DNA of 64,000 nucleotides from assembly GCA_047639555.1 (NCBI GenBank), contig JBLIOE010000001.1, forward strand, positions 45,466 to 109,465. The letters are read 5' to 3'. Positions 42,965 through 57,107 of the stretch are shown here, piece after piece. The translations under genes were made by a program, and so were the position numbers. Below the pieces are notes generated by a model, which saw nothing but the letters and a program-made list of their open reading frames with translations, was not told the origin of the DNA and ran no database searches. This DNA is from Candidatus Aldehydirespiratoraceae bacterium (GTDB lineage: Bacteria; Actinomycetota; Acidimicrobiia; Acidimicrobiales; Aldehydirespiratoraceae). Numbering within the stretch: the first letter of the stretch is position 1; each line of letters starts with the position of its first letter.

Positions 42965-43043
42965 GACCTTGACGGTACCCGTTCAGGGGCCGCGCCCCCG
43001 GCAAATTGAGGCGTGCAGGCCACAGTTCTGCGGCCAACGCATC

Positions 43044-43895
43044 TCAATTTCGAGTGCGAGAGGCGGTGCCGCGTGTGTGGCGGGCGGTCTCGTCGGCCTC
43101 GCGCTCTCGGGCGGCGTACCTGAAGAAACGAATGGCGATCAGGATCCACAGGTAGAAGCCGCCGACGACCTTCATGACGGCCCCCGCAAGCTGCTGGTCG
43201 TCGGTGGGACTCAGGCCCCAGAGATTGGTATCGGTGTCGTAGGCCTCGTAGACCACACCCTCGGCAAAGGTGAGCCAGCCGGCCGGCACTGTCGGCACGA
43301 TCGACATCAAGAACAGATAAATCAACTTTGCGGGCTCGCTGAGATGCACTTCCTTGAGTGGGCCCAGGACCGGAAACCACATCAGCAGTGCGGAGAAGAA
43401 GACACCGAGGTGGATCAGATAGTGGAACGATCCATTCTCAGAGCTGAGGTTGACGACCGCACCCCAGTGGGTGAGCACCTGGAACAGGTTGAAGACGACG
43501 CCCGCCACCACTGGCTTCGTCAGGACGCGAAGCACACGGGAAACGCCACCACCGTCGAGCACCAACAAGCGAGCCAGCCACTCCGGCATCGCCAGGAGCA
43601 GCAGCGGCGGAACGATAAACGCAATGAGCAAATGCTGGAACATGTGCACCGAGTAGAGATACTTCTCGGCGATGTCGTGCATTGGATAGTCGGCGGCGAT
43701 CCAGAGCAGGAGCACGCCGACAGCAAAGAACCGCTTCTGCGATGTGGTGACAACCGGCTGGCCTTCGGCCACCACAAGGGGACCGATCTGGCGAGTGGCA
43801 TAGATCCCAAGGGTGACGATGCCGCCAATGAGGAGCCAAACTTCTGGGTGGGCTTCGAAGGCCCACGCATTCACGGCGAGGAGGGGCGCCAGCAT
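43044..43895 (-). CDS. ctaG: Cytochrome c oxidase assembly factor, caa3-type CtaG family
   Basis: SVHMFQHLL..PPLLLL, DQQLAGAVM. Confidence 0.88.
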   Translation of the reverse strand: MLAPLLAVNAWAFEAHPEVWLLIGGIVTLGIYATRQIGPLVVAEGQPVVTTSQKRFFAVGVLLLWIAADYPMHDIAEKYLYSVHMFQHLLIAFIVPPLLLLAMPEWLARLLVLDGGGVSRVLRVLTKPVVAGVVFNLFQVLTHWGAVVNLSSENGSFHYLIHLGVFFSALLMWFPVLGPLKEVHLSEPAKLIYLFLMSIVPTVPAGWLTFAEGVVYEAYDTDTNLWGLSPTDDQQLAGAVMKVVGGFYLWILIAIRFFRYAAREREADETARHTRGTASRTRN

Positions 43896-43899
43896 GGAG

Positions 43900-44235
43900 C
43901 TATGCCCAGAACTGGAAGGTGCTCAACGCAATGCAATAGACGCCAGTTGCGAGAAACAAGCCACCCACGAACATCCGGGTGAACATGGGGTTGTCCTGCT
44001 TCAAGTGCATGAAGTAGGCCGCAACCATCCAGAACTTCACGACCATCATGAACATCAGGCTGGCAATGACCACGCTGTTGTTCTCAAATATCGGGATCGC
44101 CGACTCAAAGTAGGTGGCCACCTCGACGCCGGTGATGGCCGCAAGAATCAGCGCGATCTTGATGTACGCCCAGTCGGACGGATGATCGTGAACATCGACC
44201 TCGTCGTGGGCCTCGGTGGTGACAGATTCAGTCAT
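43900..44235 (-). CDS. Cytochrome c oxidase subunit IV (prokaryotic COX4 family)
   Basis: YIKIALILAAITGVEV, KFWMVAAYFMHLK. Confidence 0.88.
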   Translation of the reverse strand: MTESVTTEAHDEVDVHDHPSDWAYIKIALILAAITGVEVATYFESAIPIFENNSVVIASLMFMMVVKFWMVAAYFMHLKQDNPMFTRMFVGGLFLATGVYCIALSTFQFWA

Positions 44236-44248
44236 ATGAAGTCTCCGC

Positions 44249-44881
44249 TTACTCGACGGGGATCAGGTAGATGACAGTGAAGATAAAGATCCACACCACG
44301 TCTACGAAGTGCCAATAGAGACCAACGATCTCAACGGTCTCCGTGTGTTTCGGGGTCAGCTTGCCCTGCTGTGACGCCACGAAGAGCGACATCAACATGA
44401 CAACGCCTAGGGCCACATGGACACCATGGAAGCCGGTGAGCGTGTAGAACGCCGAGCTCGCAGGGTTGCCGGTGAAGCCCACGCCCTCACGAACGAACGA
44501 GGTGAACTCGTAGACCTGGCCACCGATGAATACGGCACCAAGCATCGCCGTAGCGAGGAGCCAGGCGCGGGTGGCGGGGTTGTCGCCGCGGGTGAGAGCC
44601 GACAGCGCGAGCACCATGGTGAGCGAGCTCATCAGAAGGACAAACGAACTCACCGAGGTGAACGGAATGTCGAAGATGTCGGTAGGGATCGCCGTGTTGT
44701 CCGGCCCGGGACCACGGCGGGTCTTGTAAAGCAGGTAGGTGGAGATCAAGCCACCAAACAACAAACATTCCGAACCGAGGAACGTCCACATTGCCAACTT
44801 GGTGTTGGAGATGCCGGTGGACGTGCCGTGTTCTTCCTGGCCCGTGGGCGTGTCGTGAACCTCAACGGTTGCCGTGGACAT
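44249..44881 (-). CDS. ctaE: Cytochrome c oxidase subunit III
   Basis: MWTFLGSECLLFG, LTGFHGVHV, LYWHFVDVVW. Confidence 0.95.
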   Translation of the reverse strand: MSTATVEVHDTPTGQEEHGTSTGISNTKLAMWTFLGSECLLFGGLISTYLLYKTRRGPGPDNTAIPTDIFDIPFTSVSSFVLLMSSLTMVLALSALTRGDNPATRAWLLATAMLGAVFIGGQVYEFTSFVREGVGFTGNPASSAFYTLTGFHGVHVALGVVMLMSLFVASQQGKLTPKHTETVEIVGLYWHFVDVVWIFIFTVIYLIPVE

Positions 44882-44883
44882 GC

Positions 44884-46893
44884 TCACTCCCCTCCTTCGG
44901 CGCCGGCGGTGACCGCTTTGGTCTCAGCGCTCTGGTCGTCGCCACTGTCATCATCATCGTGATGATCATCGTGACCGTGGTCGGCATCCGGGTCATCGAC
45001 CGGTTCGAGAGCCCACGAGTAGAGGGCGAGGCCGGAAAGGAGTCCACCAACGACACAGATCCAGAGATTGAAGATCAGGCCATAACCAATGAGCGGCATA
45101 CCAAGGGCGAGCACGAGCGGCCAGAACGATGGCGAGGGGAGATGTACACCCTTGGCCGAGCCGTCTTGGGCGACTTCTTCGATCGTCGCGATCCGGACGA
45201 CACGCTTGTCCTCGTCGTAGCTGTACTTGCGGTGCCACCATTCGTCGAGTCCTTCGACCGTCGGGATGGTGTCGAAGTTGTGCTCCGGCGTGGGCGAAGG
45301 AATCATCCATTCGAGGCTACGAGCGTCCCACGGATCGGGACCCGGCGCTGGCAGGTTCGGGGCATCACGGAGCGACTTCCACACGTTGAAGAAGAAGACC
45401 AACACCGAGAGGGCGATGGTAAACGAACCGATCGTGGCGACCATGTTCCAGAACTCGAAGCCGAAGCCGGGCGAGTAGGTGTCGATACGACGACTCATCC
45501 CCTGCAGGCCGAGTATGTGCATTGGGCCGAACGTGAGGTTGAAACCAATGAGCATGACCCAGAAGTGGACCTTGCCCAATGTTTCGTTGAGCATGTGGCC
45601 GAAGACCTTGGGCCACCAGAAGTAGAGGCCGCCCATAAGACCAAGGACACCGCCACCGAAGATCACATAGTGGAAGTGGGCCACGATGTAGTAGGTGTCG
45701 GTCTGCTGCGTGTCGGCGGGAGCCAGCGAGTGGGTGACACCCGAGAGACCACCGATGGTGAACATCGCCACGGTGCCGACCGAGAACAGCATCGCCGTGG
45801 TGAAGCGCAACTTGCCGCCCCACATCGTGGCGAGCCAATTGAGGATCTTCACGCCGGTCGGGACCGCAATGAACATTGTCGACAGTGAGAAGGCGGCGAC
45901 AGAGAACGGACCAATACCGGATACGAACATGTGGTGCGCCCACACGCCCCAGCCCATGAAGCCGATCGCGATGCCCGAGAACACCATGAACGAGTAGCCG
46001 AAGAGAGGCTTGCGGCTGAACGTGGGAATGATCTCTGAGATCACGCCGAAGGCCGGCAAGATAATGATGTACACCTCGGGGTGCCCGAATATCCAGAACA
46101 AGTGCTGCCACAGAAGTGGATCACCGCCCGTTTCCGGATTAAAGAACTGCGCATCGAAGAGGCGGTCGAACATCAGCAGGAACAGCGCCACCGTGATCAC
46201 CGGGATGGCGAACAGGAGCAGGAACTGCGTGACGAGCAGCATCCAAGTGAGGACCGGCATGCGGAACAGAGACATTCCCGGCGCCCGCATGTTGAGGACA
46301 GTGACGATCAGGTTGATGGCCGAGACCAGCGAAGCAACACCGGCGATCAGCAGACCCAGGGCATAGAAGTCGACACCATGGCTCGGCGAGAAAGCGAGGC
46401 CGGAATTCGGCGAGTAGCAGAACCAACCGCAGTCAGCGCCGCCGCCACCAACGATCCACGACGAGTTCAGGAAGACCGCACCGGAGATCCACACCCAGAA
46501 GCTAAGGGCGTTGAGACGGGGGAAGGCCACGTCTCGAGCGCCGATCTGGAGCGGAATCAGGTAGTTCGCAAACGCCGCCGCGAGCGGCATGATGAACAGG
46601 AACACCATGGTGACGCCGTGCATGGTGAAGACTTGGTTGTACACCTCAGCACTGAGAACCTGGCCTTCCGGAGCCGCGAGCTGCACTCGGATCAGCAGTG
46701 CTTCAATGCCGCCCACCACGAAGAAGAACATCGCGGCAACGCCGTACATGATGCCGATCTTCTTGTGATCGACCGTGCTGAGCCAGTCTCGCCAACCGTT
46801 GCCGCCCTGAGGGCGGGTCAGTGCGCCGAGAGGGCGCTCGACATTGGATACGTCACCCGATGCAAGGGCGAGCGGTTCTTCGGCGATCGCCAT
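44884..46893 (-). CDS. ctaD: Cytochrome c oxidase subunit I (A1 type)
   Basis: All six His ligands present (TMHG, GHPEVY, WAHH, AHFHY); D- and K-channel residues present; two extra C-terminal TMs. Confidence 0.98.
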   Translation of the reverse strand: MAIAEEPLALASGDVSNVERPLGALTRPQGGNGWRDWLSTVDHKKIGIMYGVAAMFFFVVGGIEALLIRVQLAAPEGQVLSAEVYNQVFTMHGVTMVFLFIMPLAAAFANYLIPLQIGARDVAFPRLNALSFWVWISGAVFLNSSWIVGGGGADCGWFCYSPNSGLAFSPSHGVDFYALGLLIAGVASLVSAINLIVTVLNMRAPGMSLFRMPVLTWMLLVTQFLLLFAIPVITVALFLLMFDRLFDAQFFNPETGGDPLLWQHLFWIFGHPEVYIIILPAFGVISEIIPTFSRKPLFGYSFMVFSGIAIGFMGWGVWAHHMFVSGIGPFSVAAFSLSTMFIAVPTGVKILNWLATMWGGKLRFTTAMLFSVGTVAMFTIGGLSGVTHSLAPADTQQTDTYYIVAHFHYVIFGGGVLGLMGGLYFWWPKVFGHMLNETLGKVHFWVMLIGFNLTFGPMHILGLQGMSRRIDTYSPGFGFEFWNMVATIGSFTIALSVLVFFFNVWKSLRDAPNLPAPGPDPWDARSLEWMIPSPTPEHNFDTIPTVEGLDEWWHRKYSYDEDKRVVRIATIEEVAQDGSAKGVHLPSPSFWPLVLALGMPLIGYGLIFNLWICVVGGLLSGLALYSWALEPVDDPDADHGHDDHHDDDDSGDDQSAETKAVTAGAEGGE

Positions 46894-46894
46894 G

Positions 46895-48196
46895 TCACTC
46901 CACCTCCGTGGCCGCAATGCGTTCATCGGTAGGACGAGGGCCCAACGTTTCGAGGAAAGCAATCACGTCATTGATCTGTCGTTCAGAAAGGTTGAGGTTG
47001 GGCATACCCCGGGGCAAGGCGCCGTCCGGCAGATCGTTGGCCAGGTTGGCCTTCACTGCGTCCGGGTCGCGGATCCAGGCCGCGAGATCGTCACGGTTGA
47101 GGGTGCCGTCTTCGTTGTTATAGAGATTGAAGATGCCACCGGCGAACGTGGTGTTGTTCGCCAGGTGCGTGAGATTCGGGGCCGAGCCGGCGAGCGTCGC
47201 GGCGCCGTCGTAGGCCTCACCGTTGACGAGATCGTTGAGACCGCCAACGAGGTGGCACGAAGCGCACTGGATGGTGAACAGGTCGAGGCCGCGGAGCACT
47301 TCATTCTCAACATCGTCGACACTGCCAACGCCGGTTTCGCGGTAGGCATCGACGTAACCCTGGAGGCTCTCGTCGAACGTGGCGTCGGACATCTGCATGT
47401 CGATCCAACCCTGGAAGTCGGCATCAGTCATGGCCACAGCCTGCATACGCATGCGGCTGTGAGACAGACCACAGAACTCCGAGCATTGACCGAAGTAAAC
47501 CCCGGGTTCGTTGGCTTCGATCTTCCACGGCGTGTAGCGACCCGGCACTGCATCTCGGGTGCCGTTGAGGGCTGGGATCTTGTGGGAGTGGATGACATCA
47601 CGGGAGGTGATGATCAGTTCGACCTCGGTGAGGGTCGGGATTGCGAACTGGCCGGAGGTGACGATGTCGGCCGGTGGAAGATCACGGGGGTCGCCAAGAT
47701 CGGCGGTCTTGATCTGTGAGCCGTCGAGGTAGTAACGATATTCCCACCACCATTGCTGGCCGACCACAACGATGGTCGGCTCCCATTCGACCGACTCGCC
47801 GGCAACATCGATGGTGATCGAGTTGTCGTCGGTGCCGTTGATATCGATGTGGGTGATGATCGTGAAGACACCGATCACCGCCATGATGAGCGCCGGAACG
47901 ATGGTCCAGGCGATCTCCAACGAGTTGTTGTGGGAGATCTGCTCGGGGAACTCATCGTCGTCTTCGTAGGAGGAAACGCCGTGCTTGAAGGCGAGGTAGA
48001 GCACCGCTCCACAGATGGCCACGAGGACCACACCGGCAAGAATGAAGACCGGATAGGCGAGGTTCCAGATGGTCTCGGCGACCTCGCTCTGTGGATCAAG
48101 GGTGTCGAGCTCAGCGTCGCTGGCGCAACCAGCGGTGAGCAACCCAAAGAGAAGAAGAAGTCCGACGCCCGGCAGGCGGCCGCGGATCTTGAACAT
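46895..48196 (-). CDS. ctaC: Cytochrome c oxidase subunit II fused to a cytochrome c domain (caa3 type)
   Basis: Lipobox LTAGC, DVIHS, CuA motif CSEFCGLSHSRM, heme c motif CASCH, distal GMP; start 48196 or 48235. Confidence 0.95.
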   Translation of the reverse strand: MFKIRGRLPGVGLLLLFGLLTAGCASDAELDTLDPQSEVAETIWNLAYPVFILAGVVLVAICGAVLYLAFKHGVSSYEDDDEFPEQISHNNSLEIAWTIVPALIMAVIGVFTIITHIDINGTDDNSITIDVAGESVEWEPTIVVVGQQWWWEYRYYLDGSQIKTADLGDPRDLPPADIVTSGQFAIPTLTEVELIITSRDVIHSHKIPALNGTRDAVPGRYTPWKIEANEPGVYFGQCSEFCGLSHSRMRMQAVAMTDADFQGWIDMQMSDATFDESLQGYVDAYRETGVGSVDDVENEVLRGLDLFTIQCASCHLVGGLNDLVNGEAYDGAATLAGSAPNLTHLANNTTFAGGIFNLYNNEDGTLNRDDLAAWIRDPDAVKANLANDLPDGALPRGMPNLNLSERQINDVIAFLETLGPRPTDERIAATEVE

Positions 48197-48197
48197 G

Positions 48198-49049
48198 TCA
48201 CTCACCGTCGTTGTCTCCGTCAGTGTGTTCGGCATCTATTTCGTCGCCGTCTTCGTCGTAGGACTCGTCGGCATCGCCGGCTTCGTCATCGCCCTCGGTC
48301 TCTTCATGTTCGTGGAATTCGCGCTCGCCATCGACTGCGGCCCAGACCCCACCACCAAGCACGGCGACAGCGACAACCACCGAAAGGCCGGCCACGACGT
48401 TCTTGCCGAGCTTGATCGACTCGTTGGCCGCAATAATTGCGATTCCGACGATGATCACCGCAACGACGCCGGCAACAACCACGGCACCGAGCTTCGAAAC
48501 GTTGAGCATGATGCGGGAGATCGCCAGCACCCCGACAGCAACAACAAGACCACCAGCGGCGGGAATCTCGATCGGCGCCATAATGCGATTACGGAGGGCA
48601 CGGTTGGCTTCGGGATCACCCGTGGCCCGATCGGCCCAGGCGTCCATCATCCAGGAGATGGAGACAAGACCCGCAGCCACAAGGCCAGCGATGAAGATCG
48701 CCGTATTGAGAACGAGGCCAACCGCCATGGTGGCAACGGCGAAGGCGCCGATGATCGGCCAATGGCTCGGCGTGACCGGCAAGGTGGGGGCGATGTCGTC
48801 GACCCCCATGTAGTCGGCCTGATCGGCGGGATCCGCGTCGCGGAAGGTGATCAGCGTGAGAGCGATGCCGATGGCGCTGACCCCAAGCCCAACGAGAACG
48901 CCATAGCCGACATGTTCGCCAACACCGCCCTTCCAGCCGAGGCTGAGCGGTCCGACGTGGTTTCCACCAGACGTGTAGCCATAGAGGACGCCGGCGGTCG
49001 CCAGAGCGACACCGATGCCAAAGAAGAATTTGAAGCCCGAGGTGAACAC
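48198..49049 (-). CDS. Membrane protein with CtaF-like (actinobacterial subunit 4) region and acidic tail
   Basis: About 7 TMs, TPSHWPII motif before a helix pair, in the oxidase operon; the family call is tentative. Confidence 0.6.
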   Translation of the reverse strand: MFTSGFKFFFGIGVALATAGVLYGYTSGGNHVGPLSLGWKGGVGEHVGYGVLVGLGVSAIGIALTLITFRDADPADQADYMGVDDIAPTLPVTPSHWPIIGAFAVATMAVGLVLNTAIFIAGLVAAGLVSISWMMDAWADRATGDPEANRALRNRIMAPIEIPAAGGLVVAVGVLAISRIMLNVSKLGAVVVAGVVAVIIVGIAIIAANESIKLGKNVVAGLSVVVAVAVLGGGVWAAVDGEREFHEHEETEGDDEAGDADESYDEDGDEIDAEHTDGDNDGE

Positions 49050-49056
49050 TTGATCC

Positions 49057-49647
49057 CTACTTCGTGACGTAGATGACGTACCAGGCGATCGCCCACATGG
49101 CGACGACTGTGTTCCAGTAGAACGCCGCCGCAGCGACGGAATCGGCCTTGCGAGGACCGAATTGCCCGACCAAAGCCCGCAGGAAGGTCAGAACAATGAA
49201 CACCGTCGCAGCGATAAGGAACGCTGCGAAGGCGCCGTTGACGACGAAGAACATGAACTCAGCGGTGGAACCGTCGAGCGCAAAGCCCGTGTCGTTGATA
49301 ATGAACCACATTTGGTTGAACACCGCGGCGCCGAACACCCCCGAGAGGGCTAGGGCGACGATTGTATTCTTGCGGTCGTCGTTGTTGATTGCCTGCACGG
49401 CCCACTGCACGGTGACAGTCGACAAGATCAGTGTGGCGAAGATGAAGCCGGAAGGGCCGAGCTCAACAACTCCCGACGGGAACCATTCGGTGCCGGCGGT
49501 GCGAGCGGTGCCACGTTCGCTGATGTAGACGATGATGACGCCCACGAAAGCCATGAACGAGGCGGCCGACGCAAACATCGTGCCGACAAGCACGGTGCGG
49601 GGTCGGGTGACCTCCGCGGATGGGAGGCCAGTAGTGGTCGCAGTCAT
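49057..49647 (-). CDS. Degenerate cytochrome c oxidase subunit III paralog
   Basis: Five TMs colinear with CtaE; TLILSTVTVQWA and AAFYWNTVVAMW..YVIY. Confidence 0.8.
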   Translation of the reverse strand: MTATTTGLPSAEVTRPRTVLVGTMFASAASFMAFVGVIIVYISERGTARTAGTEWFPSGVVELGPSGFIFATLILSTVTVQWAVQAINNDDRKNTIVALALSGVFGAAVFNQMWFIINDTGFALDGSTAEFMFFVVNGAFAAFLIAATVFIVLTFLRALVGQFGPRKADSVAAAAFYWNTVVAMWAIAWYVIYVTK

Positions 49648-51324
49648 TTAGGACTCCTCTCCCTCATCGGAGGGTGAATCTGAGGCATCGAGCAGCGGGG
49701 TTTCGGAGGTGACTCGGGCAGGCGCTTCGGTGAACGAACCACCGACGGTGGACCATTCGAGGGTCTGACCATCCCAGGGGTTGTCCGAACCAGGCTCGCC
49801 GGAGCGCATTGCCTTGGCGAGGGCGGCCACGAGGCCGAGGGCGCCGAGTCCGACCAGAAGAATTCCGATCAGCGACACGACGTTGAGCACATCGGCAGCA
49901 TCCTCAGTGACCACTCCGAGAGGGCTATTGGGGGTGTCGAGGAAGCCGTTGGCCACCTGCCCACCACCGAGTAGCAACGCACCACCGAGAAGGCTGAGCG
50001 TCACCATGCGACCCATCATCGAGGGAAGTGCGTGGCCACCGATCTTCGGGGCCCAGAACCAGAATCCGCCGATTGCGGACGCAATCGCACCAAGAAGCAC
50101 GAGGTTCATCACACCAGAGATGGCGATAGTGCCCATGACACCGGTCTGGGTGACGACGGCGCCCAATTCGAGCGGCTCGATCACTCGGGCAACGCCGGCG
50201 ACGACGCCAAGAGCAACGATCAGGACGCCACCGAGGGCGCCGAGCAGGTGCGCAGGCGGGAGTCCGGCGATGTTGCTGCGGCCCCGCAAGAGAGAATCAC
50301 CGATGCCACCGATGAAACCGAGCACCGGGATGATCGCCGCGATGCCGAAGACGATGAAGATGAACTTCTGGTCGTACTGGACGTTGGCCGCAAGGTCGAA
50401 CTGGAAGTAGGGCTGGCTCCAGGCGCCAAATGACACCAGACCGAAGAGACCGATCATCGCCATCGAGAGGCCGTGGCGGGAGGCCTTCACGCCCGCTGCC
50501 ACGGGGGCAACGGAACCCAGAATGCCGAGGGCCGGAATGGCGAAGGCGTAGACCTGCGGCTGTTCGACCAGCCAAGCAACCTGCGCCCAGATGGAGGTGT
50601 CGCCGTTGAGGCCACCGCCGAAGGTGCCAGGGCCGTTGTGAAGGTCGACGTAGGCGACGAGGAGGTTGGCCAACAGCACCGGAAGGGTGAGGAGCCAGAC
50701 CGCCGTAGCAACCAGCATCGACCAGGCAAACAATGGCGTGCGCATCAGGGTCATGCCCTTGACACGCAACGAAACGACGGTGGTGGCAATACAGACCGAG
50801 GCGAGCAGCAGGGAAATGATGACCATGCCCATACCCGTGAGGGTGAGGGCAATGGCGTCACGTTCGTCGCCGGTCGCCCGGTCAAATGCGCCCCAGCCGC
50901 CACCGGCGAACACCGAGGCGATCATGATTCCGGCGCCAAGGACGAAGCCCCAAACCGCGGCCAGAGCGGCACGAGGGAAGGCAATGTTGGTGGAGCCAAC
51001 CTGCATCGGCACGACCACGGTGGCCAGACCAATGAACAGCGGCATCGCAACAAGGAGAGCGAGGCCGATGCGGTACAGGGCCCACATCTGAAGGAAGGCG
51101 TTGTCGCCGCCGAAGATGTCGACCGTGTCGGCATCGAGGCGTTCGAACCCGATGAGCACGCCAACAACGACGGCACCAATCAGGAGAAATACGCCGGATT
51201 TCATCCACATGCGGCCAATGGCCTTGTGGTCCGTCGTGGTGAGCGCGTCGTAGAGCCCAGCCGCCGCGGGCGAGGGGGCCGCCGAGGCAGTATCAGTGGC
51301 CGGCGGTGTGTCGGTCATCGTCAT
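49648..51324 (-). CDS. Cofactor-ligand-less cytochrome c oxidase subunit I paralog
   Basis: TTDHKAIG, PMQVG..AFPR, PQVY and NPWDGQTLEW colinear with CtaD, but all six His ligands replaced; GGAGG RBS. Confidence 0.88.
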   Translation of the reverse strand: MTMTDTPPATDTASAAPSPAAAGLYDALTTTDHKAIGRMWMKSGVFLLIGAVVVGVLIGFERLDADTVDIFGGDNAFLQMWALYRIGLALLVAMPLFIGLATVVVPMQVGSTNIAFPRAALAAVWGFVLGAGIMIASVFAGGGWGAFDRATGDERDAIALTLTGMGMVIISLLLASVCIATTVVSLRVKGMTLMRTPLFAWSMLVATAVWLLTLPVLLANLLVAYVDLHNGPGTFGGGLNGDTSIWAQVAWLVEQPQVYAFAIPALGILGSVAPVAAGVKASRHGLSMAMIGLFGLVSFGAWSQPYFQFDLAANVQYDQKFIFIVFGIAAIIPVLGFIGGIGDSLLRGRSNIAGLPPAHLLGALGGVLIVALGVVAGVARVIEPLELGAVVTQTGVMGTIAISGVMNLVLLGAIASAIGGFWFWAPKIGGHALPSMMGRMVTLSLLGGALLLGGGQVANGFLDTPNSPLGVVTEDAADVLNVVSLIGILLVGLGALGLVAALAKAMRSGEPGSDNPWDGQTLEWSTVGGSFTEAPARVTSETPLLDASDSPSDEGEES

Positions 51325-51448
51325 GGTTGCAGGTGTCCTCCGACAGATGCGCCCGACAGCAGGGGCGCAAACTGTTGCTTCGTTCGTTGGCGCACTTCGA
51401 TCACCGCCGCGGCACGCGACGACACCCGAAGTGCAGTACCGAGACGGC

Positions 51449-51512
51449 AGCCTACAGGGCCGCGCGGCCCCGGTTGTAAACCGGGCGGCAGAGGAATTTT
51501 GGCGGATTTTTC
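51449..51512 (-). promoter_or_regulatory. Candidate promoter of the oxidase operon
   Basis: TAGGCT (-10-like, 51449-51454 on minus), TTTACA and A-tracts upstream; spacing is non-canonical. Confidence 0.35.
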
Positions 51513-51525
51513 ATCCGTCGGCCTC

Positions 51526-52422
51526 TCAGAACCCGTTCCGGATGATTTCGTCGGCCGCCATTGCCCCAAACAGCAGGGTCACATAGGTGATTGACCACCC
51601 AAAGAGACGCATGGCGCGGGCCGGTTCGGGGCGACGAAATACCTGCACCGCGAGGCCGGTAAACACCGCACCCAGCACAATTGCCGCCACGTAGTAGGTG
51701 ATGCCCATGCTGGCGACCGGGCCAAACACCAGCGTGAGCACCCACAAAACGACGGTGTACATCACGATTCGGGTGACCGTGGTCTTCAGCGAAGCAACGG
51801 CCGGCAGCATCGGCACATCGGCCGCTTGATAGTCGTCCTTGTAACGGATGGCCAAGGCCCAGAAGTGGGGCGGAGTCCAGACAAAGATGATGGCGAAGAG
51901 AATGACGGGCGGCCAGTCGAGCCCATTGGTGACTGCGGACCAGCCCACGAGGACGGGCACGGCGCCCGCGGCGCCACCGATGACGATGTTGCTGGAGGAC
52001 GTGCGCTTCAACCACATCGTGTAAACGAACACGTAGAACAGTGTGGCGGAAACGGCGAGCACGGCCGAGAGCAGGTTCACGAAACCCCACAGCCAGACGA
52101 ACGAGACGATCTCGACGACGAAGGCGAAAATTAGTGCTTCGCGAGGCGTGACTTCGCCGGTAACCAGTGGACGGCCTTTGGTGCGTTCCATGAGACGATC
52201 AATATCGCGATCGATGTACATGTTGAACGTGTTGGCACCGCCAGCCGCAAGCGTGCCGCCGACCACAGTGGCAACCATGAGCCAGAGGCCGGGAACGCCA
52301 CCTTCTGCGACCACCATCGTGGGCACAGTGAGGATCAGCAGCAGTTCAATAATGCGCGGCTTGGTCAGCGCGATGAAGGCGAGGGCGCGCGGACGCTGCT
52401 TTGGGGGTGCGGTGGCAGTCAC
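51526..52422 (-). CDS. ctaB: Heme o synthase (protoheme IX farnesyltransferase)
   Basis: LTKPRII, NMYIDRDIDRLMERTKGRPL, WTPPHFWALA. Confidence 0.97.
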   Translation of the reverse strand: MTATAPPKQRPRALAFIALTKPRIIELLLILTVPTMVVAEGGVPGLWLMVATVVGGTLAAGGANTFNMYIDRDIDRLMERTKGRPLVTGEVTPREALIFAFVVEIVSFVWLWGFVNLLSAVLAVSATLFYVFVYTMWLKRTSSSNIVIGGAAGAVPVLVGWSAVTNGLDWPPVILFAIIFVWTPPHFWALAIRYKDDYQAADVPMLPAVASLKTTVTRIVMYTVVLWVLTLVFGPVASMGITYYVAAIVLGAVFTGLAVQVFRRPEPARAMRLFGWSITYVTLLFGAMAADEIIRNGF

Positions 52423-52481
52423 GGATCCGAAGGATACGGCCGACAAGGCACGACCGCCCAATGGGGCCGTAGCCTTTCCAT

Positions 52482-53408
52482 GTGAGTCCGGCCCGATACC
52501 TCTCCCTCACCCGAGCAGCATTGTGGTCGTTGACCATCATCGTCATCACCGGGGCGGCCGTCCGCCTCACCGGCTCGGGTCTCGGCTGCAGCGATTGGCC
52601 GAACTGCGAGGAAGACCAGTTCGTTTCCGATCTGTCCTTTCACCCGGCGATCGAGTTCGGGAACCGGATGTTCACCGGTGTTGTCACCATTGCCGTGATC
52701 GCCGCGGTGCTCGGATCGCTTCGGCGAGTGCCGCGCCGCACAGACCTGGTGTGGCTGTCGTGGGGTCTCGTCGCCGGTGTGCTCGCCCAAATCATTCTTG
52801 GCGGCCTCCTTGTGCGGACCGAACTCGACCCACGGTTCACGATGGGACATTTCCTGCTCTCCATGGTGCTGTTGTGGAACGCGGCGGTGCTGATGCATCG
52901 GGCTGCGCAGCCCGAACAGGTCGCCGTCGCTTCGTGGGAATGGGATATGGACGCGGCCACGTCCCACGCTCGTCTGCTTCGACCCGCGGGGCGAATCGCT
53001 CTGCTTGCCGGCGGGGTCGTGTTGGTGCTCGGCACAATCGTGACAGGCAGCGGCCCACACTCGGGCAGCGACGAAGCCGAAGTCGCAGAGCGGCTGCCGT
53101 TCGCTCTCCGCGAAGTCACTCGGCTGCACAGCCTCGCGGGCCTGATCTTTCTGCTGGGCCTCGCCGGCATTCTTCTTTATGCCCGAAAGCACAACCGGGT
53201 GCGGGTCGTCGCCGCGGCACAGGTGGTGGTGTCGCTTATCGGCGCCCAGATCATCGTCGGTTACTGGCAGTACTTCACGGGGGTGCCGGTATTGCTCGTG
53301 GGTATCCACGTGGCCGTCGCAACGTTGACGTGGATCTCGTTGGTTCGCCTTGAGCTCGAAACGCGCCGGACATCGATGCCCGAATCCGTGCTGGCGAAAC
53401 TGCCATGA
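52482..53408 (+). CDS. ctaA: Heme A synthase (COX15/CtaA family)
   Basis: [30 protein letters not shown], conserved His in TM helices. Confidence 0.93.
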
Positions 53409-53692
53409 CCGCGCCGACAACCATCGAACGTCCAGAAGTTGTCGACGTGACCGATTTGTCGCGGCCGTGGAAAGTGCTTGTTTGGGACGACCCGATCAAC
53501 CTTCAGTCATATGTCGCCTTCGTCTTTCGCAGCCTGTTTGGGTTCTCTGAGGAGAAGGCGCACCGTCTGATGATGGAGGTGCACAACGACGGTCGTGCGG
53601 TCGTCACTTCGGGGCCGAAGGAGAAGGCGGAGATGGATGTGTTCCGTCTTCATGAGCACGGACTCTGGGCGACCATGGAGCACGACTCGTGA
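53405..53692 (+). CDS. clpS: ATP-dependent Clp protease adaptor ClpS
   Basis: [30 protein letters not shown]. Confidence 0.95.
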
Positions 53693-53758
53693 GTGCGACC
53701 CGAGAAACCGAGCACGACTCGTGAGTGCGACCCGAGAAACCGAGCACGACTCGTGAGT
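53678..53758 (+). repeat. 32-bp tandem repeat (2.5 copies), MIRU-like
   Basis: GAGCACGACTCGTGAGTGCGACCCGAGAAACC at 53678 and 53710, plus a 17-bp partial copy at 53742. Confidence 0.95.
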
Positions 53759-54229
53759 CGCAACTGGCCGTTTGCGCGGGAGAACGACGCCGTCGTGGTG
53801 GCGCTGGGCGAGTACGAAGTGGAAGTCCTCGAGAACCTCATCGAAGACATGCGTCACCTTTTGATGGCCGACTCGCACGACACACTGCGGCGTCTGAAGC
53901 CACCGGCCCATCCTGACAACGAAGAGGCCGAGCAGAGTTACCGCAAGTTGGTCGACGACGACCTGTTGCGGAGTCGGCTCGAACTACTCGATGTGGTTGA
54001 GGAAACGATGACGGGCGCAGTCCTCGATGACGCGGGCGTCGCGGCGTGGATGCAGAGCCTCAACAACATGCGCTTGGTGCTCGGCGAACGACTCGCACTC
54101 GACGGGGCCGATCTCGATTCGCACGACCTTCCCGAGGGCCCCGCAACATTTCTTTATGAGTGGATTGGCGAGCTGCTGGAGTTCCTCGTTCGGGCCGCGA
54201 TGCCTGGCCTGGAAGCAAACGACGGCTGA
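53753..54229 (+). CDS. DUF2017 family protein
   Basis: [30 protein letters not shown]; usual partner of clpS in actinobacteria. Confidence 0.85.
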
Positions 54230-54368
54230 ACACCGTCCGGTTCGACCGCCGGATCGGACCCAAACTACATCGCTGTCACCAGATGTGGTATTGACGCCGC
54301 TCTACGTGGTGATCCACAATCTGTGGATAGTTACGGCGAATGTCGCCGGTTCAATTGGGGGGAGACCA

Positions 54369-55511
54369 ATGAACAAGTTCCACACCCGGCGTACCCGGGT
54401 ACGCGCATTTACTCTTGCGATCGCAAGTGTCTTCGGGCTCAGCTTTTTGCTGATCGGCTCCGCAAATGGCGCACCGACAAGCTCTGCGTCACCAACGACC
54501 AACGTCACGTCCGGCACCAGCATCGATGTCAACATTGATGGCAGCGGCGGCTACGACGGCGCTGGACTGCTCGTCGTCACCCAGTGCGGCAACGCCGCTA
54601 CTGATGGCACGCTCCTCGCCGCGACTACCGCGGCCGACTGCTTCGGCGCTGAGGGCCTCGCTGCCGGTCAGCTTTTGCTCCAGATCGGACCGGTTGACGG
54701 AACGGACTACAGCTTCACCTACCCGTGGGTCGACATCGGTATCGGCGTAAATGGCTCCCAGTGTGTCTTCGGCGGCACGATCGGCTGCGCGATCAGCGTG
54801 GCACTGATCGACAACCTCGTCGATCAGAACCTCCTCACGACGGAGCTCATTACTGTCACGCCGCTTGAGGACGACGACGACGGCGACGGCTTCGGCAACA
54901 CGAATGACAACTGCCCGGACGACGCCAACGCCGACCAGGCTGATCTTGACGGTGTCGGCGGCGGCGATGTCTGTGACCCAGACATCGACGGCGACGGCGT
55001 GGCCAACGAGGCCGACAACTGCGTGTTGGTCGAAAATCCCGACCAGGAAGAGACCGATGATCCGACTGACGGCATCGGCGACGCCTGCTCTGGCGATACC
55101 GACGAAGACGGCGTGCTTGACGCCCTCGACAACTGCGTCAACGACGCCAACGCCGACCAGGCCGACCTCGATGAGGACGGACTGGGCGACGAGTGCGACG
55201 CCGACATCGACGGTGACGGCACGGTCGAAGAAGACGACAACTGCCCCGGCGTAGCCAACGAGGACCAAGCGGACCTTGACGGCGACGGCATCGGTACGGC
55301 GTGTGACGACGAGGAAGTCGCTCCGACGACCACGGCTGCTCCGACAACCACTCCTCCCACCACCACGGTGGCCGCGACGGTTGCTGGTGCCCAGGAACTC
55401 GCCGTGACTGGCTCCGATGAGGCACCTGCCCTCCTCGCTGCTGGTGCGCTTGCGCTCCTTGGTCTCGGCCTCACCACGACGTCACGAGCCATCCGGCGTC
55501 GCGAAGACTGA
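54369..55511 (+). CDS. Secreted, probably cell-wall-anchored protein with thrombospondin type-3 repeats
   Basis: Signal peptide, 4-Cys beta domain, repeated DNC..NxDQxDxDxDGxGDxC, Thr/Pro linker, LAVTG plus TM plus RRR tail. Confidence 0.88.
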
Positions 55512-55622: not shown

Positions 55623-57107
55623 TTACGGCGCCCCGAGCTCCCAGGCGGACTCCGCCGCGGCAACCCCGAGCACACCACGCAGCTCGTCGGCCCGAGCCAT
55701 CGGCAGGTCGACGACCCGCACAAAGTTTGCGGGCCCGATGCCAGCCGTCGACACGACGAGGTCGGCCAGACCAAGGCGCCGCTGGAAGAACGAGGCCGTC
55801 GTAGAGACCGCCTGGACGTTTGTCAGCGGGAGCTGGGTGAGCTGGTGCACCAACACGCCACGACGGGCCACGAGACGCTGAGCGTCGATCGAGATGCCGA
55901 GGCGTTGATAACGGACACGGACGTACCAGATCGTCAACGGCCAGTAGACGACCGACGGCACGATCCCGACCAACAGCGCGGTCTCGAACGAGAGGCCGAC
56001 GCTGGCCGGAAGCATGATGAAGAGATACAGCATGGTCGCTCGCACAAGCGCCCGCCGATTTGTCAGCGGGCTGACCGGCTCAAGCTCGACATCAAAACCG
56101 GGGTCGACGTCGACCGCCCCCTGCACGATCAGCGACACCACATCGGTATGCGCAGCCGGTGAAAGAAGCGGCCGCTGCTTCTGGGCCGCCACGGCCTTGC
56201 CCGTCGCTGCCGCGAACCGAATCTCATGGAGGTCGAGCCATCGAGCGACCGGGCTCGAGGCCACCGTGATGGTCTGGATTCGGTCGGGGCGCACCTCCAC
56301 CTGACGGCGCGAGAGCAACCCGGCCTCGATGGTCAGGGACCGGGGTCCTCGATGGAGAAGGAAACCGCCGTTTTGCATCACCATCGCGCCAACCGATGCT
56401 CCGACGAACAGAACGAACGACGCCACCGCCACCGCCAGCACGAGAAGGCCCGTACGGGCCGTGCTGAGCACCATCGCCACCACCGCGCCGATGAGGAGCG
56501 GTGTGAACACGAGAGCAAGCGCAGGCGTCAGAGTCGCCAACTGAAGGGTAATCAGGTCCCGCAGCGACCCTTCGTGGAGCATTGTCGGAGCGGGTGTCGG
56601 CGCGGGCAACGTTTCACCAGGGACGCTCCCATCCTCGAGTGCAGCCGTCCCATCCGCTCTTGCTGCCGCGAGGGACCGGAGATCCGCGGTCAGCGCTTCG
56701 GCAGCCGATTTACCGAGATATTGGATCTCGATGTCGCCGTCGGCGGAGGCCTCCGACACCTGGACCGACGCCAACCCAAAGGCTCGGGGTATGGCGGCTT
56801 GCGCAACCGTCACCTGCTGAATCCGATTGAGGGGAATCGACTTCTCGTGCCGGTTGAGTACGCCGCTTCGGTACATCACAGCATCGCCGGTCACGACATA
56901 ACGAGTCATGTACCAGCCGAGTCCGCCCGCCCCCACGACAAACACCGCGATCGCGGTACCGACCAGGTTGAACCCGATGCCGCCGCCAACGCCAATCGCG
57001 ATCAGGAAGGGAAAGATGTTGTTGGCGACCATCGTGGCAACCAGGACGATCGTGGTGAGCGGATGCGCCCGGCTCCAATCGATCTCGGCATCCTCAACGG
57101 CGGTCAC
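55623..57107 (-). CDS. YdbT-like membrane protein with bacterial PH (bPH_2) domains
   Basis: Three repeats of GVL/GLL..(R)IQ.V..R.LGL. Confidence 0.88.
   Translation of the reverse strand: MTAVEDAEIDWSRAHPLTTIVLVATMVANNIFPFLIAIGVGGGIGFNLVGTAIAVFVVGAGGLGWYMTRYVVTGDAVMYRSGVLNRHEKSIPLNRIQQVTVAQAAIPRAFGLASVQVSEASADGDIEIQYLGKSAAEALTADLRSLAAARADGTAALEDGSVPGETLPAPTPAPTMLHEGSLRDLITLQLATLTPALALVFTPLLIGAVVAMVLSTARTGLLVLAVAVASFVLFVGASVGAMVMQNGGFLLHRGPRSLTIEAGLLSRRQVEVRPDRIQTITVASSPVARWLDLHEIRFAAATGKAVAAQKQRPLLSPAAHTDVVSLIVQGAVDVDPGFDVELEPVSPLTNRRALVRATMLYLFIMLPASVGLSFETALLVGIVPSVVYWPLTIWYVRVRYQRLGISIDAQRLVARRGVLVHQLTQLPLTNVQAVSTTASFFQRRLGLADLVVSTAGIGPANFVRVVDLPMARADELRGVLGVAAAESAWELGAP

What the first reader, a model, noticed from the sequence alone, without database searches (positions are those of the whole stretch)
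49648..51324. Full-length subunit I pseudoenzyme: all metal ligands and proton channels lost
Seen, by eye alignment to CtaD at 44884-46893 (bovine numbering): H61 TMHG to ALYR; H240/E242 GHPEVY to EQPQVY; H290/H291 WAHH to WSQP; H376/H378 AHFHY to GVMNL; D91 ARDVAFPR to STNIAFPR; K319 PTGVK to PVLGF; the propionate-binding Arg pair GMSRR is absent. Structural motifs TDHKxIG, AFPR, FWWPK-like FWAPK and PWDxxxLEW remain over 558 aa. Established: these residues are required for heme a, heme a3/CuB binding and pumping. Inference: it cannot reduce O2 and has a structural, regulatory or transport role.
Basis: partly seen in the sequence, partly recalled or inferred. Interest (0 to 1): 0.82.

Follow-up and report, generated by a model that had tools for sequence, protein, structure and literature searches.

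The report
Cofactor-less oxidase subunit I paralogue
A full-length, well conserved copy of the catalytic subunit of cytochrome oxidase that has lost every metal-binding residue sits, with its own partner subunits, inside a working oxidase operon of an Acidimicrobiales bacterium, and most likely serves as a non-catalytic membrane scaffold.

Summary
The ORF is on the minus strand, 49648-51324, 558 aa. It is a COX1-fold protein (Pfam 123.6 bits; AF2 pLDDT 86; TM about 0.8 to solved subunit I chains). It has no His at any of the six heme or CuB ligand positions and no D-channel or K-channel residues.

It is not recent decay:
- 120 of 120 listed relatives (45-94% identity) lack all three CuB His and the heme a3 His.
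- dN/dS in the genus is 0.08-0.26.

It is the first gene of a three-gene cassette: subunit I-like, subunit III-like, and a 283-aa protein that may be subunit IV-like. The cassette lies between ctaB and ctaC-ctaD-ctaE in all 18 Acidimicrobiales loci examined and was not found in other orders sampled.

Distant cassette members keep the heme ligands but never a CuB site, so the loss was stepwise.

Constraint survives on TM1-TM5 and is relaxed on the catalytic TM6-TM10. A complex model places the three cassette proteins together (0.80, best control 0.00).

Trees reject a local duplication of the adjacent ctaD.

The best reading is a cofactor-free pseudo-oxidase module that works with the caa3 oxidase. 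I found no paper on it. An analogous "deranged COX1-like" gene beside ctaB is reported in Acetobacter.

The parts
49648..51324 (-). psCox1: 558-aa subunit I paralogue with no His at any of the six heme or CuB ligand positions (the finding)
   Evidence: ORF and translation P0001. Pfam COX1 123.6 bits. AF2 pLDDT 86, pTM 0.90. Foldseek TM 0.79-0.80 to solved subunit I chains. Ligand columns.
49057..49647 (-). Cox3L: 196-aa subunit III-like protein. Its start codon directly follows the psCox1 stop.
   Evidence: Pfam COX3 37.6 bits, cut-off 23.8. NCBIfam aa3_CtaE_Actin 48.9 bits, cut-off 190. Found next to psCox1 in 17 of 18 loci. dN/dS median 0.25.
48198..49049 (-). unk283: 283-aa polytopic membrane protein with an acidic tail. 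No curated family. Its N-terminal half may be subunit IV (CtaF)-like.
   Evidence: No Pfam or NCBIfam hit for the window protein. 398 homologues, the named ones all 'hypothetical protein'. 7 of 22 relatives weakly match Cyt_c_ox_IV. hhalign to CtaF: E 0.0071, probability 5%. Full-length hits only in the same order. Modelled against psCox1 and Cox3L at ipSAE 0.80, best control 0.00.
46895..48235 (-). ctaC: subunit II with a fused C-terminal cytochrome c domain. It is the only COX2 gene in the genome.
   Evidence: Pfam COX2 83.4, COX2_TM 32.3, Cytochrom_C 26.3 bits. TIGR02866 159.2 bits, over its cut-off. One COX2 match in the genome.
44884..46962 (-). ctaD: intact catalytic subunit I with a C-terminal subunit IV-like hairpin. 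The likely start is the ATG at 46893.
   Evidence: Pfam COX1 527.7 bits. TIGR02891 702.2 bits, over its cut-off. Cyt_c_ox_IV 25.7 bits at residues 596-653. All ligands present.
44249..44887 (-). ctaE: canonical subunit III
   Evidence: Pfam COX3 79.5 bits. CyoC and QoxC 146-150 bits.
43044..43895 (-). ctaG: caa3-type assembly factor, at the end of the gene row
   Evidence: Pfam Caa3_CtaG 138 bits.
51526..52461 (-). ctaB: heme o synthase, immediately upstream of psCox1
   Evidence: UbiA 223.4 bits. NF003349 heme o synthase 399.8 bits. Adjacent to the cassette in 18 of 18 loci, on the same strand in 16.
52482..53408 (+). ctaA: heme a synthase, divergently oriented
   Evidence: Pfam COX15-CtaA 66.1 bits.
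51325..51525 (-). 201-nt spacer between ctaB and psCox1, with GGAGGA 12 nt before the ATG
   Evidence: Sequence read. No promoter or terminator excess. No Rfam match.

Best explanation
psCox1 is a conserved pseudo-subunit I. It keeps the 12-helix heme-copper-oxidase fold but has no canonical ligands for CuB, heme a3 or heme a, and no proton pathways, so it does not reduce O2.

It is made together with a subunit III-like protein and a 283-aa, possibly subunit IV-like protein. With them it forms a cofactor-free I'-III'-IV' membrane module that has no subunit II of its own.

The module is encoded inside the caa3 oxidase operon and is found only where that operon is found. I infer that it acts as a non-catalytic structural partner of the caa3 oxidase: an extra, scaffold-like part of the complex or of a larger assembly.

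Shown: loss of ligands, conservation, purifying selection, fixed synteny, retained fold, and a shift of constraint away from the catalytic core.

Inferred: the three proteins bind each other (model only), and the module attaches to or serves the caa3 oxidase (synteny only).
For: 1. Fold kept, ligands gone.

2. Not decay.
- 120 of 120 relatives at 45-94% identity lack all CuB His and H376.
- Among the 129 full-length proteins of the best 150 representatives from a 1.84-billion-protein library, none has more than one CuB His and 79 have no His at any of the six positions.
- NG86 dN/dS in the genus (10 sequences, 45 pairs): psCox1 median 0.26, closest pairs 0.08-0.17; Cox3L 0.25; unk283 0.23; ctaB 0.11.

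3. Fixed context.
- A subunit I-like gene lies next to ctaB and upstream of ctaC-ctaD in 17 of 18 loci. The 18th contig ends before ctaC.
- Cox3L was found in 17 of 18 loci and unk283 in 17 of 18.
- Spacers from psCox1 to ctaE run from small overlaps to 7 nt.

4. Tied to this oxidase.
- Same-order genomes without the cassette carry only a different oxidase, 43-47% identical to the window CtaD.
- Other orders have the orthologous CtaD (54-61% identity) without a cassette.

5. No partner subunit II: the genome has one COX2 gene.

6. Constraint moved. In 16 paired genomes the psCox1/CtaD conservation ratio is 0.50-0.69 in TM1-TM5 and 0.14-0.41 in TM6-TM10 and their loops.

7. Complex model: ipSAE 0.80, 0.80 and 0.54, best of 3 controls 0.00. 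The runs agree in at least 51% of contacts and the partner's pLDDT is at least 62. The mark was reached by 58 of 80 solved complexes and 2 of 110 mismatched pairs, counts that hold only roughly here. Modelled interface residues are more conserved than the rest, 0.79 against 0.65, and 6 of 515 circular shifts do as well.
Against: - No expression or protein data. No RNA run holds the stretch.
- No test of contact between the module and CtaC, CtaD or CtaE.
- The complex pass may come from likeness to solved mycobacterial CtaD-CtaE-CtaF complexes. The interface conservation is not independent of the alignments used for the model.
- The unk283 monomer model is poor (pLDDT 51) and its likeness to CtaF is statistically weak.
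- Heme ligands are strictly kept in one large subfamily. The ancestral role may have needed heme, so the role may differ between subfamilies.
- Adjacency to ctaB fits an assembly role equally well.
Confidence: 0.45

Rival explanations
1. Assembly or heme-handling scaffold. The module mimics an apo-oxidase core and docks or stabilises heme o synthase (CtaB), heme a synthase (CtaA) or CtaG during biogenesis of the real oxidase. It is not part of the finished enzyme.
For: - psCox1 lies directly beside ctaB in 18 of 18 loci. ctaA and ctaG flank the row.
- Basal subfamily members keep both heme sites, as a heme-receiving intermediate would.
- A ligand-less COX1-like gene kept beside ctaB in Acetobacter has been proposed to stabilise CtaB. 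I read this in passages of PMC10715153, which cites Matsutani 2014. That paper was not held.
Against: - Same-order genomes that use only the aa3-type oxidase also need CtaA and CtaB but lack the cassette.
- In 2 of 18 loci ctaB is on the opposite strand, while the cassette always stays co-oriented with ctaC-ctaD.
- Window-type proteins have lost the heme ligands, so they cannot hold heme in the canonical sites.
Confidence: 0.22
2. A new, independent membrane function (ion or proton leak, transport, sensing) that merely shares the operon.
For: - There is strong purifying selection and a large, diverse family.
- Several family-specific invariant polar residues occur, mostly near the periplasmic ends of helices, plus an invariant His284.
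Against: - D91, E242 and K319 are replaced by N, Q and non-polar or small residues.
- No conserved ionisable residue lies inside the helices.
- The former catalytic and channel helices TM6-TM10 are the least constrained part.
- The module was never found away from the caa3 operon.
Confidence: 0.12
3. Still an enzyme. Alternative ligands (for example Tyr84, Gln255, Gln304, Asn, His284, Cys178) bind heme or metal and give some redox activity.
For: - Replacement residues are themselves conserved: Y in 106 of 120, Q in 120 of 120, Q in 120 of 120, N in 96 of 120.
- His284 and Cys178 are near-invariant.
Against: - The propionate-binding Arg pair is gone.
- TM10, which carries both axial His in oxidases, is weakly conserved.
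- Replacement residues differ between subfamilies. This argues against one alternative site.
Confidence: 0.04
4. Functionless remnant on its way to loss, kept only by operon position.
For: - psCox1 evolves about 2-5 times faster than CtaD.
- Some lineages lost the C-terminal tail.
Against: - The full-length frame is intact across an order-wide family.
- dN/dS is 0.08-0.26.
- 91 positions are at least 97% conserved among 70 relatives.
- Co-divergence with CtaD implies retention since the ancestor of the order.
Confidence: 0.03

Closest known systems
A-family heme-copper oxidase subunit I (CtaD/CoxA; Pfam PF00115, TIGR02891)
   Same: - Full-length 12-helix fold.
- Best structural matches are mycobacterial aa3, E. 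coli bo3 and Thermus caa3 subunit I, with TM 0.78-0.80.
- Shared motifs: TDHK, AFPR, the R..GM..R.PLF.W loop, and PW..TLEW.
   Different: - No His at any of the six ligand positions.
- No D91, E242 or K319, and no Arg pair.
- Scores 190 bits against a cut-off of 671.
- No dedicated subunit II.
Classical actinobacterial aa3 core CtaD-CtaE-CtaF, as in solved mycobacterial and corynebacterial III2IV2 supercomplexes
   Same: - The ML tree groups the psCox1 clade with this CtaD lineage (SH-aLRT 98).
- Cox3L's best curated hit is aa3_CtaE_Actin.
- unk283 aligns colinearly with CtaF and is modelled between subunits I' and III'.
   Different: - No CtaC partner and no cofactors.
- The genome has no actinobacterial QcrC over the cut-off.
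- The affinity is not secure: the AU test does not reject grouping with the caa3-like clade (p 0.28).
'Deranged COX1-like protein' of Acetobacter. Reported by Matsutani et al. 2014, as cited in Degli Esposti et al. 2023 (PMC10715153, passages read).
   Same: A subunit I-like gene lacking all metal-binding residues, retained next to ctaB. A structural role has been proposed.
   Different: - Different phylum and, as far as I can tell, an independent origin.
- There the cytochrome c oxidase was replaced by a quinol oxidase.
- Here an intact caa3 oxidase sits in the same operon, and the pseudo-subunit has its own III-like and IV-like partners.
Nitric oxide reductases and the new NOR-like HCO families (Murali et al. 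2024, PMC11214002, passages read)
   Same: Members of the HCO superfamily that do not reduce O2.
   Different: In the passages read, the NOR active site has a high-spin heme and FeB ligated by three His and a Glu (one new family has Asp for one His), and the new families lack the active-site Tyr. psCox1 has none of the metal ligands.

Membership tests
Heme-copper oxidase superfamily, subunit I fold (PF00115) | Sequence match over the curated cut-off and a 12-TM fold | tested here: met
   123.6 bits against a cut-off of 34.8, covering profile positions 2-434 of 436. AF2 pLDDT 86. Foldseek finds 86 PDB hits at E<=1e-3, and the chains listed are oxidase subunit I.
Functional heme-copper O2 reductase | Six His ligands: low-spin heme H61 and H378, high-spin heme H376, CuB H240, H290 and H291 | tested here: not met
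   The six positions are Y, N, V, Q, Q and P in the window protein. The same holds in most of the 120 relatives.
Functional heme-copper O2 reductase | Cross-linked His-Tyr cofactor and proton pathways (D91, N98, E242, K319) | tested here: not met
   Tyr244 is present but its His240 partner is Gln. D91 is N, N98 is A, E242 is Q and K319 is F.
CtaD/CoxA equivalog (TIGR02891) and actinobacterial aa3 subunit I (NF050116) | Score over the curated cut-off | tested here: not met
   190.3 bits against 670.75, and 165.1 bits against 880.
Descent from the actinobacterial aa3 CtaD lineage | Phylogenetic grouping with that clade to the exclusion of the caa3-like clade | tested here: inconclusive
   The ML tree gives SH-aLRT 98. 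The AU test rejects sisterhood with the local CtaD (p 0.0008). It does not reject grouping with the whole caa3-like clade (p 0.28). The groups were named after the tree was seen, and the branches are long.
Nitric oxide reductase (cNOR, qNOR and newer NOR families) | His ligands of both hemes and of FeB | tested here: not met
   Same columns as above.
Subunit III (PF00510), for the neighbour Cox3L | Match over the curated cut-off | tested here: met
   37.6 bits against 23.8. It is not an equivalog of actinobacterial CtaE (48.9 bits against 190).
Actinobacterial subunit IV, CtaF (PF12270), for the neighbour unk283 | Sequence or profile match to CtaF | tested here: inconclusive
   - The window protein has no hit.
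- 7 of 22 relatives match weakly, best E 0.0038.
- hhalign E 0.0071, probability 5.4%, colinear over 113 columns.
- Atlas second hit is named 'Cytochrome c oxidase polypeptide IV', score 0.91.
- The monomer model is too poor for a fold search.
Acetobacter 'deranged COX1-like' protein | Loss of all metal ligands and a position beside ctaB | tested here: met
   This is a likeness in kind only.
Acetobacter 'deranged COX1-like' protein | Common descent with that protein | not tested
   No Acetobacter sequence was at hand. The primary paper is not held.

The most novel reading that the evidence does not exclude
Acidimicrobiales build their main terminal oxidase as an asymmetric assembly. In it, a complete but cofactor-free pseudo-oxidase core (I'-III'-IV', an old paralogue possibly of the aa3 lineage) is an obligatory structural half next to the catalytic caa3 core. 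This would be a respiratory enzyme with a dead paralogue as an integral subunit. The heme-only, copper-less forms in basal lineages would be living intermediates of that transition.
Probability: 0.25. Interest if true: 0.8.

Novelty: new variant of a known kind. Interest (0 to 1): 0.66.

Why it matters
Heme-copper oxidase subunit I is one of the most conserved catalytic proteins known, and its six histidines are used to define the superfamily.

Here a whole bacterial order, common in seawater, ice and soil metagenomes, keeps a full-length copy with none of them. The copy is under purifying selection, has its own partner subunits, and sits inside the operon of its working oxidase.

What this offers:
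- A natural series from two hemes without copper, to one heme site, to no cofactor. The series shows what the fold does once catalysis is removed.
- A caution for annotation. These genes are named "cytochrome c oxidase subunit I" or "cbb3-type ... subunit I" by public sources, so oxidase counts in metagenomes are inflated.
- If the module is part of the oxidase complex, it adds a new kind of supernumerary subunit to bacterial respiration.

Tried and rejected
- **RNA evidence:** no RNA holder is listed among 24 runs.
- **Read laying on four DNA runs:** near-identical contigs in one ice run and a colinear contig about 92% identical in a seawater run. Only 40 of 653 differences were printed, so no pN/pS could be computed.
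- **unk283 searches:** the profile search against PDB sequences gave one chance-level hit, E 0.43. The AF2 monomer model was too poor (pLDDT 51) for a fold search.
- **Signals in the operon:** the promoter and terminator scan found no more sites than in shuffles. Rfam gave no match in 43000-54000.
- **Rejected idea 1, recent duplication of the adjacent ctaD:** rejected by the AU test, p 0.0008.
- **Rejected idea 2, psCox1 as the decayed sole copy of the aa3 oxidase:** rejected. Four cassette-bearing genomes (G034, G025, G029, G040) also hold an intact aa3-clade CtaD.
- **Rejected idea 3, a bcc-aa3-type supercomplex partner:** the genome has no actinobacterial QcrC over the cut-off. Its cytochrome b locus is a split-b Rieske complex on another contig.
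- **Literature:** seven full-text searches found nothing on this family in Acidimicrobiia. Supplements were not consulted. Matsutani 2014 is not held.
Full report
**What is there**

The ORF at 49648-51324 lies on the minus strand and encodes 558 aa (P0001). It aligns end to end with the neighbouring CtaD (P0002) at 24% identity, E 4e-38. It matches Pfam COX1 over nearly the whole profile at 123.6 bits, against 527.7 for CtaD. It falls far below the curated cut-offs for real subunit I families: TIGR02891 190 against 671, and NF050116 165 against 880.

An AlphaFold2 model built on 70 relatives is confident (pLDDT 86, pTM 0.90). Its best PDB matches are subunit I chains of mycobacterial aa3, E. 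coli bo3 and Thermus caa3 oxidases, with TM 0.78-0.80.

| Canonical residue | Role | In psCox1 |
|---|---|---|
| H61 | low-spin heme ligand | Y |
| H240 | CuB ligand | Q |
| E242 | proton pathway | Q |
| H290 | CuB ligand | Q |
| H291 | CuB ligand | P |
| H376 | high-spin heme ligand | V |
| H378 | low-spin heme ligand | N |
| D91 | D channel | N |
| N98 | D channel | A |
| K319 | K channel | F |
| Arg pair | heme propionates | absent |

**The locus**

The minus strand carries, in order: ctaB, psCox1, a subunit III-like gene (Cox3L, 196 aa), a 283-aa membrane protein (unk283), ctaC with a fused cytochrome c, ctaD with a subunit IV-like C-terminal hairpin, ctaE, and ctaG. ctaA is divergent upstream.

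From psCox1 to ctaE the genes are separated by small overlaps or by at most 7 nt. A 201-nt spacer with a GGAGGA precedes psCox1.

The genome (4.15 Mb, 96% complete) holds two COX1 genes, two COX3 genes and a single COX2 gene, all in this row.

**Not a recent wreck**

- A word-indexed search found 504 relatives. The 120 listed are 45-94% identical. Public sources that name them call them subunit I of Acidimicrobiales, Acidimicrobiaceae or Actinomycetota MAGs.
- In these 120, none has His at H240, H290, H291 or H376. Nine have His at H61 and nine at H378.
- A full HMMER pass over 1.84 billion representatives gave 2,980, 992 and 226 hits at E 1e-3, 1e-10 and 1e-30. I examined the 129 full-length proteins among the best 150; 21 shorter ones were dropped. 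Of the 129, 118 have no CuB His, 11 have one, none has two or three, and 79 have no His at any of the six positions.
- Within the genus (10 sequences, 45 pairs) NG86 dN/dS has a median of 0.26 for psCox1, with the closest pairs at 0.08-0.17. The medians are 0.25 for Cox3L, 0.23 for unk283 and 0.11 for ctaB.

**A cassette tied to one oxidase**

- All 41 relatives' genomes searched have a match. In nearly all, a psCox1-like hit lies about 4.4 kb upstream of CtaD on the same strand.
- I fetched 18 loci from other genera and families of the order. A subunit I-like gene lies between ctaB and ctaC-ctaD in 17. The 18th contig ends after unk283.
- By BLASTP, Cox3L was found in 17 of 18 loci and unk283 in 17 of 18. 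ctaB is on the same strand in 16 of 18.
- A profile of unk283 found full-length matches in 42 of 49 same-order genomes sampled, plus the one same-family genome in the sample and the window's own. In other orders it found only weak partial matches.
- Five other-order genomes and five same-order genomes without the cassette show no tandem COX1 pair. The cassette-less same-order genomes carry an oxidase only 43-47% identical to the window CtaD. Other orders carry the orthologue at 54-61% identity.

**Stepwise loss**

| Loci | Ligand positions kept |
|---|---|
| L022, L023, L032 | H61, H376, H378; no CuB His |
| L017, L018, L025 | H61 and H378 only |
| L015 | H61 only |
| L029, L031 | H378 only |
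| L016, L019, L020, L024, L026-L028, L030 and the window | none of the six |
| L021 | H240 only, by alignment; no heme ligand |

The L022-type is itself a large subfamily, with 120 listed at 52-100% identity. In it H61 is His in 119 of 120, H378 in 120 of 120 and H376 in 100 of 120. H240 is Arg in 120 of 120, and H290 and H291 are never His. It is probably a copper-less hemoprotein.

In the trees these heme-keeping forms have the shortest branches and sit in the basal split of the psCox1 clade. The branching of that clade mirrors the CtaD tree.

**Origin**

- The psCox1 clade is monophyletic (SH-aLRT 100) on a long stem.
- With Actinomycetota added, it groups (SH-aLRT 98) with classical actinobacterial aa3 CtaD and with the oxidase of the cassette-less Acidimicrobiales. 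It does not group with the adjacent CtaD. Loci of three unpublished genomes were left out of this tree.
- An AU test rejects psCox1 as sister of the local CtaD (p 0.0008). It does not reject grouping with the whole caa3-like clade (p 0.28). The groups were named after the tree was seen, and long branches are in play.
- Four cassette genomes also hold an intact aa3-clade CtaD. psCox1 is therefore an old paralogue, not simply the decayed only copy.

**What is still under constraint**

In 16 paired genomes the ratio of psCox1 to CtaD conservation is 0.50-0.69 in TM1-TM5. It falls to 0.14-0.41 in TM6-TM10 and their loops, which are the most conserved part of CtaD.

A three-chain model was run with psCox1 residues 20-535, Cox3L, and unk283 residues 1-255 as partner.
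- It scored ipSAE 0.80, 0.80 and 0.54 against a best control of 0.00.
- The runs agree in at least 51% of contacts, and the partner's pLDDT is at least 62.
- The mark was reached by 58 of 80 solved complexes and 2 of 110 mismatched pairs. Those counts hold only roughly, because my own alignments were used.
- The pass may reflect likeness to solved CtaD-CtaE-CtaF complexes.

The 57 modelled interface residues are more conserved than the rest, 0.79 against 0.65, and 6 of 515 circular shifts do as well.

The likeness of unk283 to CtaF is suggestive but weak.

**Reading**

The protein cannot reduce O2 by any canonical route.

I put the cofactor-free I'-III'-IV' module working with the caa3 oxidase as a structural partner at 0.45. 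The main support is that the cassette is found only with that operon and always co-oriented with ctaC-ctaD, and that aa3-only relatives do without it.

An assembly scaffold around CtaB and CtaA is the main rival, at 0.22. It has a published analogue: passages of PMC10715153 report an Acetobacter COX1-like protein lacking all metal ligands, kept beside ctaB and thought to stabilise it. They cite Matsutani 2014, which is not held.

Transport, residual catalysis and pure decay are less likely, for the reasons given under the rival explanations.

**Limits**

- No expression or protein data exist here.
- Seven full-text searches found no description of this family. Supplementary files were not seen.

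Noticed in passing
L022:2920-4548 (G034), also L023 and L032: A large subfamily of the same cassette protein keeps both heme sites but replaces the CuB ligands with Arg, Ala and Gly. H61 is kept in 119 of 120, H378 in 120 of 120 and H376 in 100 of 120. E242 is kept as E or D in 119 of 120. It is probably a copper-less two-heme protein of unknown activity.
   Followed up: partly
window 44884-45100 (C-terminal end of ctaD): The intact CtaD carries a C-terminal two-helix extension that resembles actinobacterial subunit IV (Cyt_c_ox_IV 25.7 bits, just under the cut-off of 26.9). The middle of unk283 matches the same segment in CtaD ORFs of three other genomes.
   Followed up: partly
window 51301-51324 and 49651-49700 (N- and C-termini of psCox1): The very N-terminus, MT[ML]T[DE]xxP, is conserved across the whole order-level family. 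A C-terminal V.SE.PLLD motif is conserved in most members. Four loci of the window's own family (L027-L029, L031) lack the C-terminal tail entirely. No explanation was found.
   Followed up: no
window 51325-51525: A 201-nt G+C-rich spacer lies between ctaB and psCox1, the only long gap in the gene row. It has no Rfam match and no consensus promoter or terminator.
   Followed up: partly
L082 (G000:C5:49000-62000): The genome's cytochrome b locus encodes a 4Fe-4S ferredoxin-like protein, a split cytochrome b (265 + 264 aa), a Rieske protein and a 527-aa cytochrome c. No actinobacterial diheme QcrC scores over its cut-off.
   Followed up: partly
G281:C4:779787-786453: Another Actinomycetota genome has two high-scoring subunit I genes about 5 kb apart on one strand (666 and 581 bits on NF050116). 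I did not check whether either has lost ligands.
   Followed up: no
L020 and L021 (G027, G035): The CtaD reading frame downstream of the cassette is split into two overlapping ORFs in these two genomes. This could be a frameshift or an assembly error.
   Followed up: no
window 54027-55511 and 55623-57107: Two genes lie just beyond ctaA: a 494-aa protein with thrombospondin type 3 repeats (88.5 bits) and a 494-aa protein with three bacterial PH domains (148 bits).
   Followed up: no
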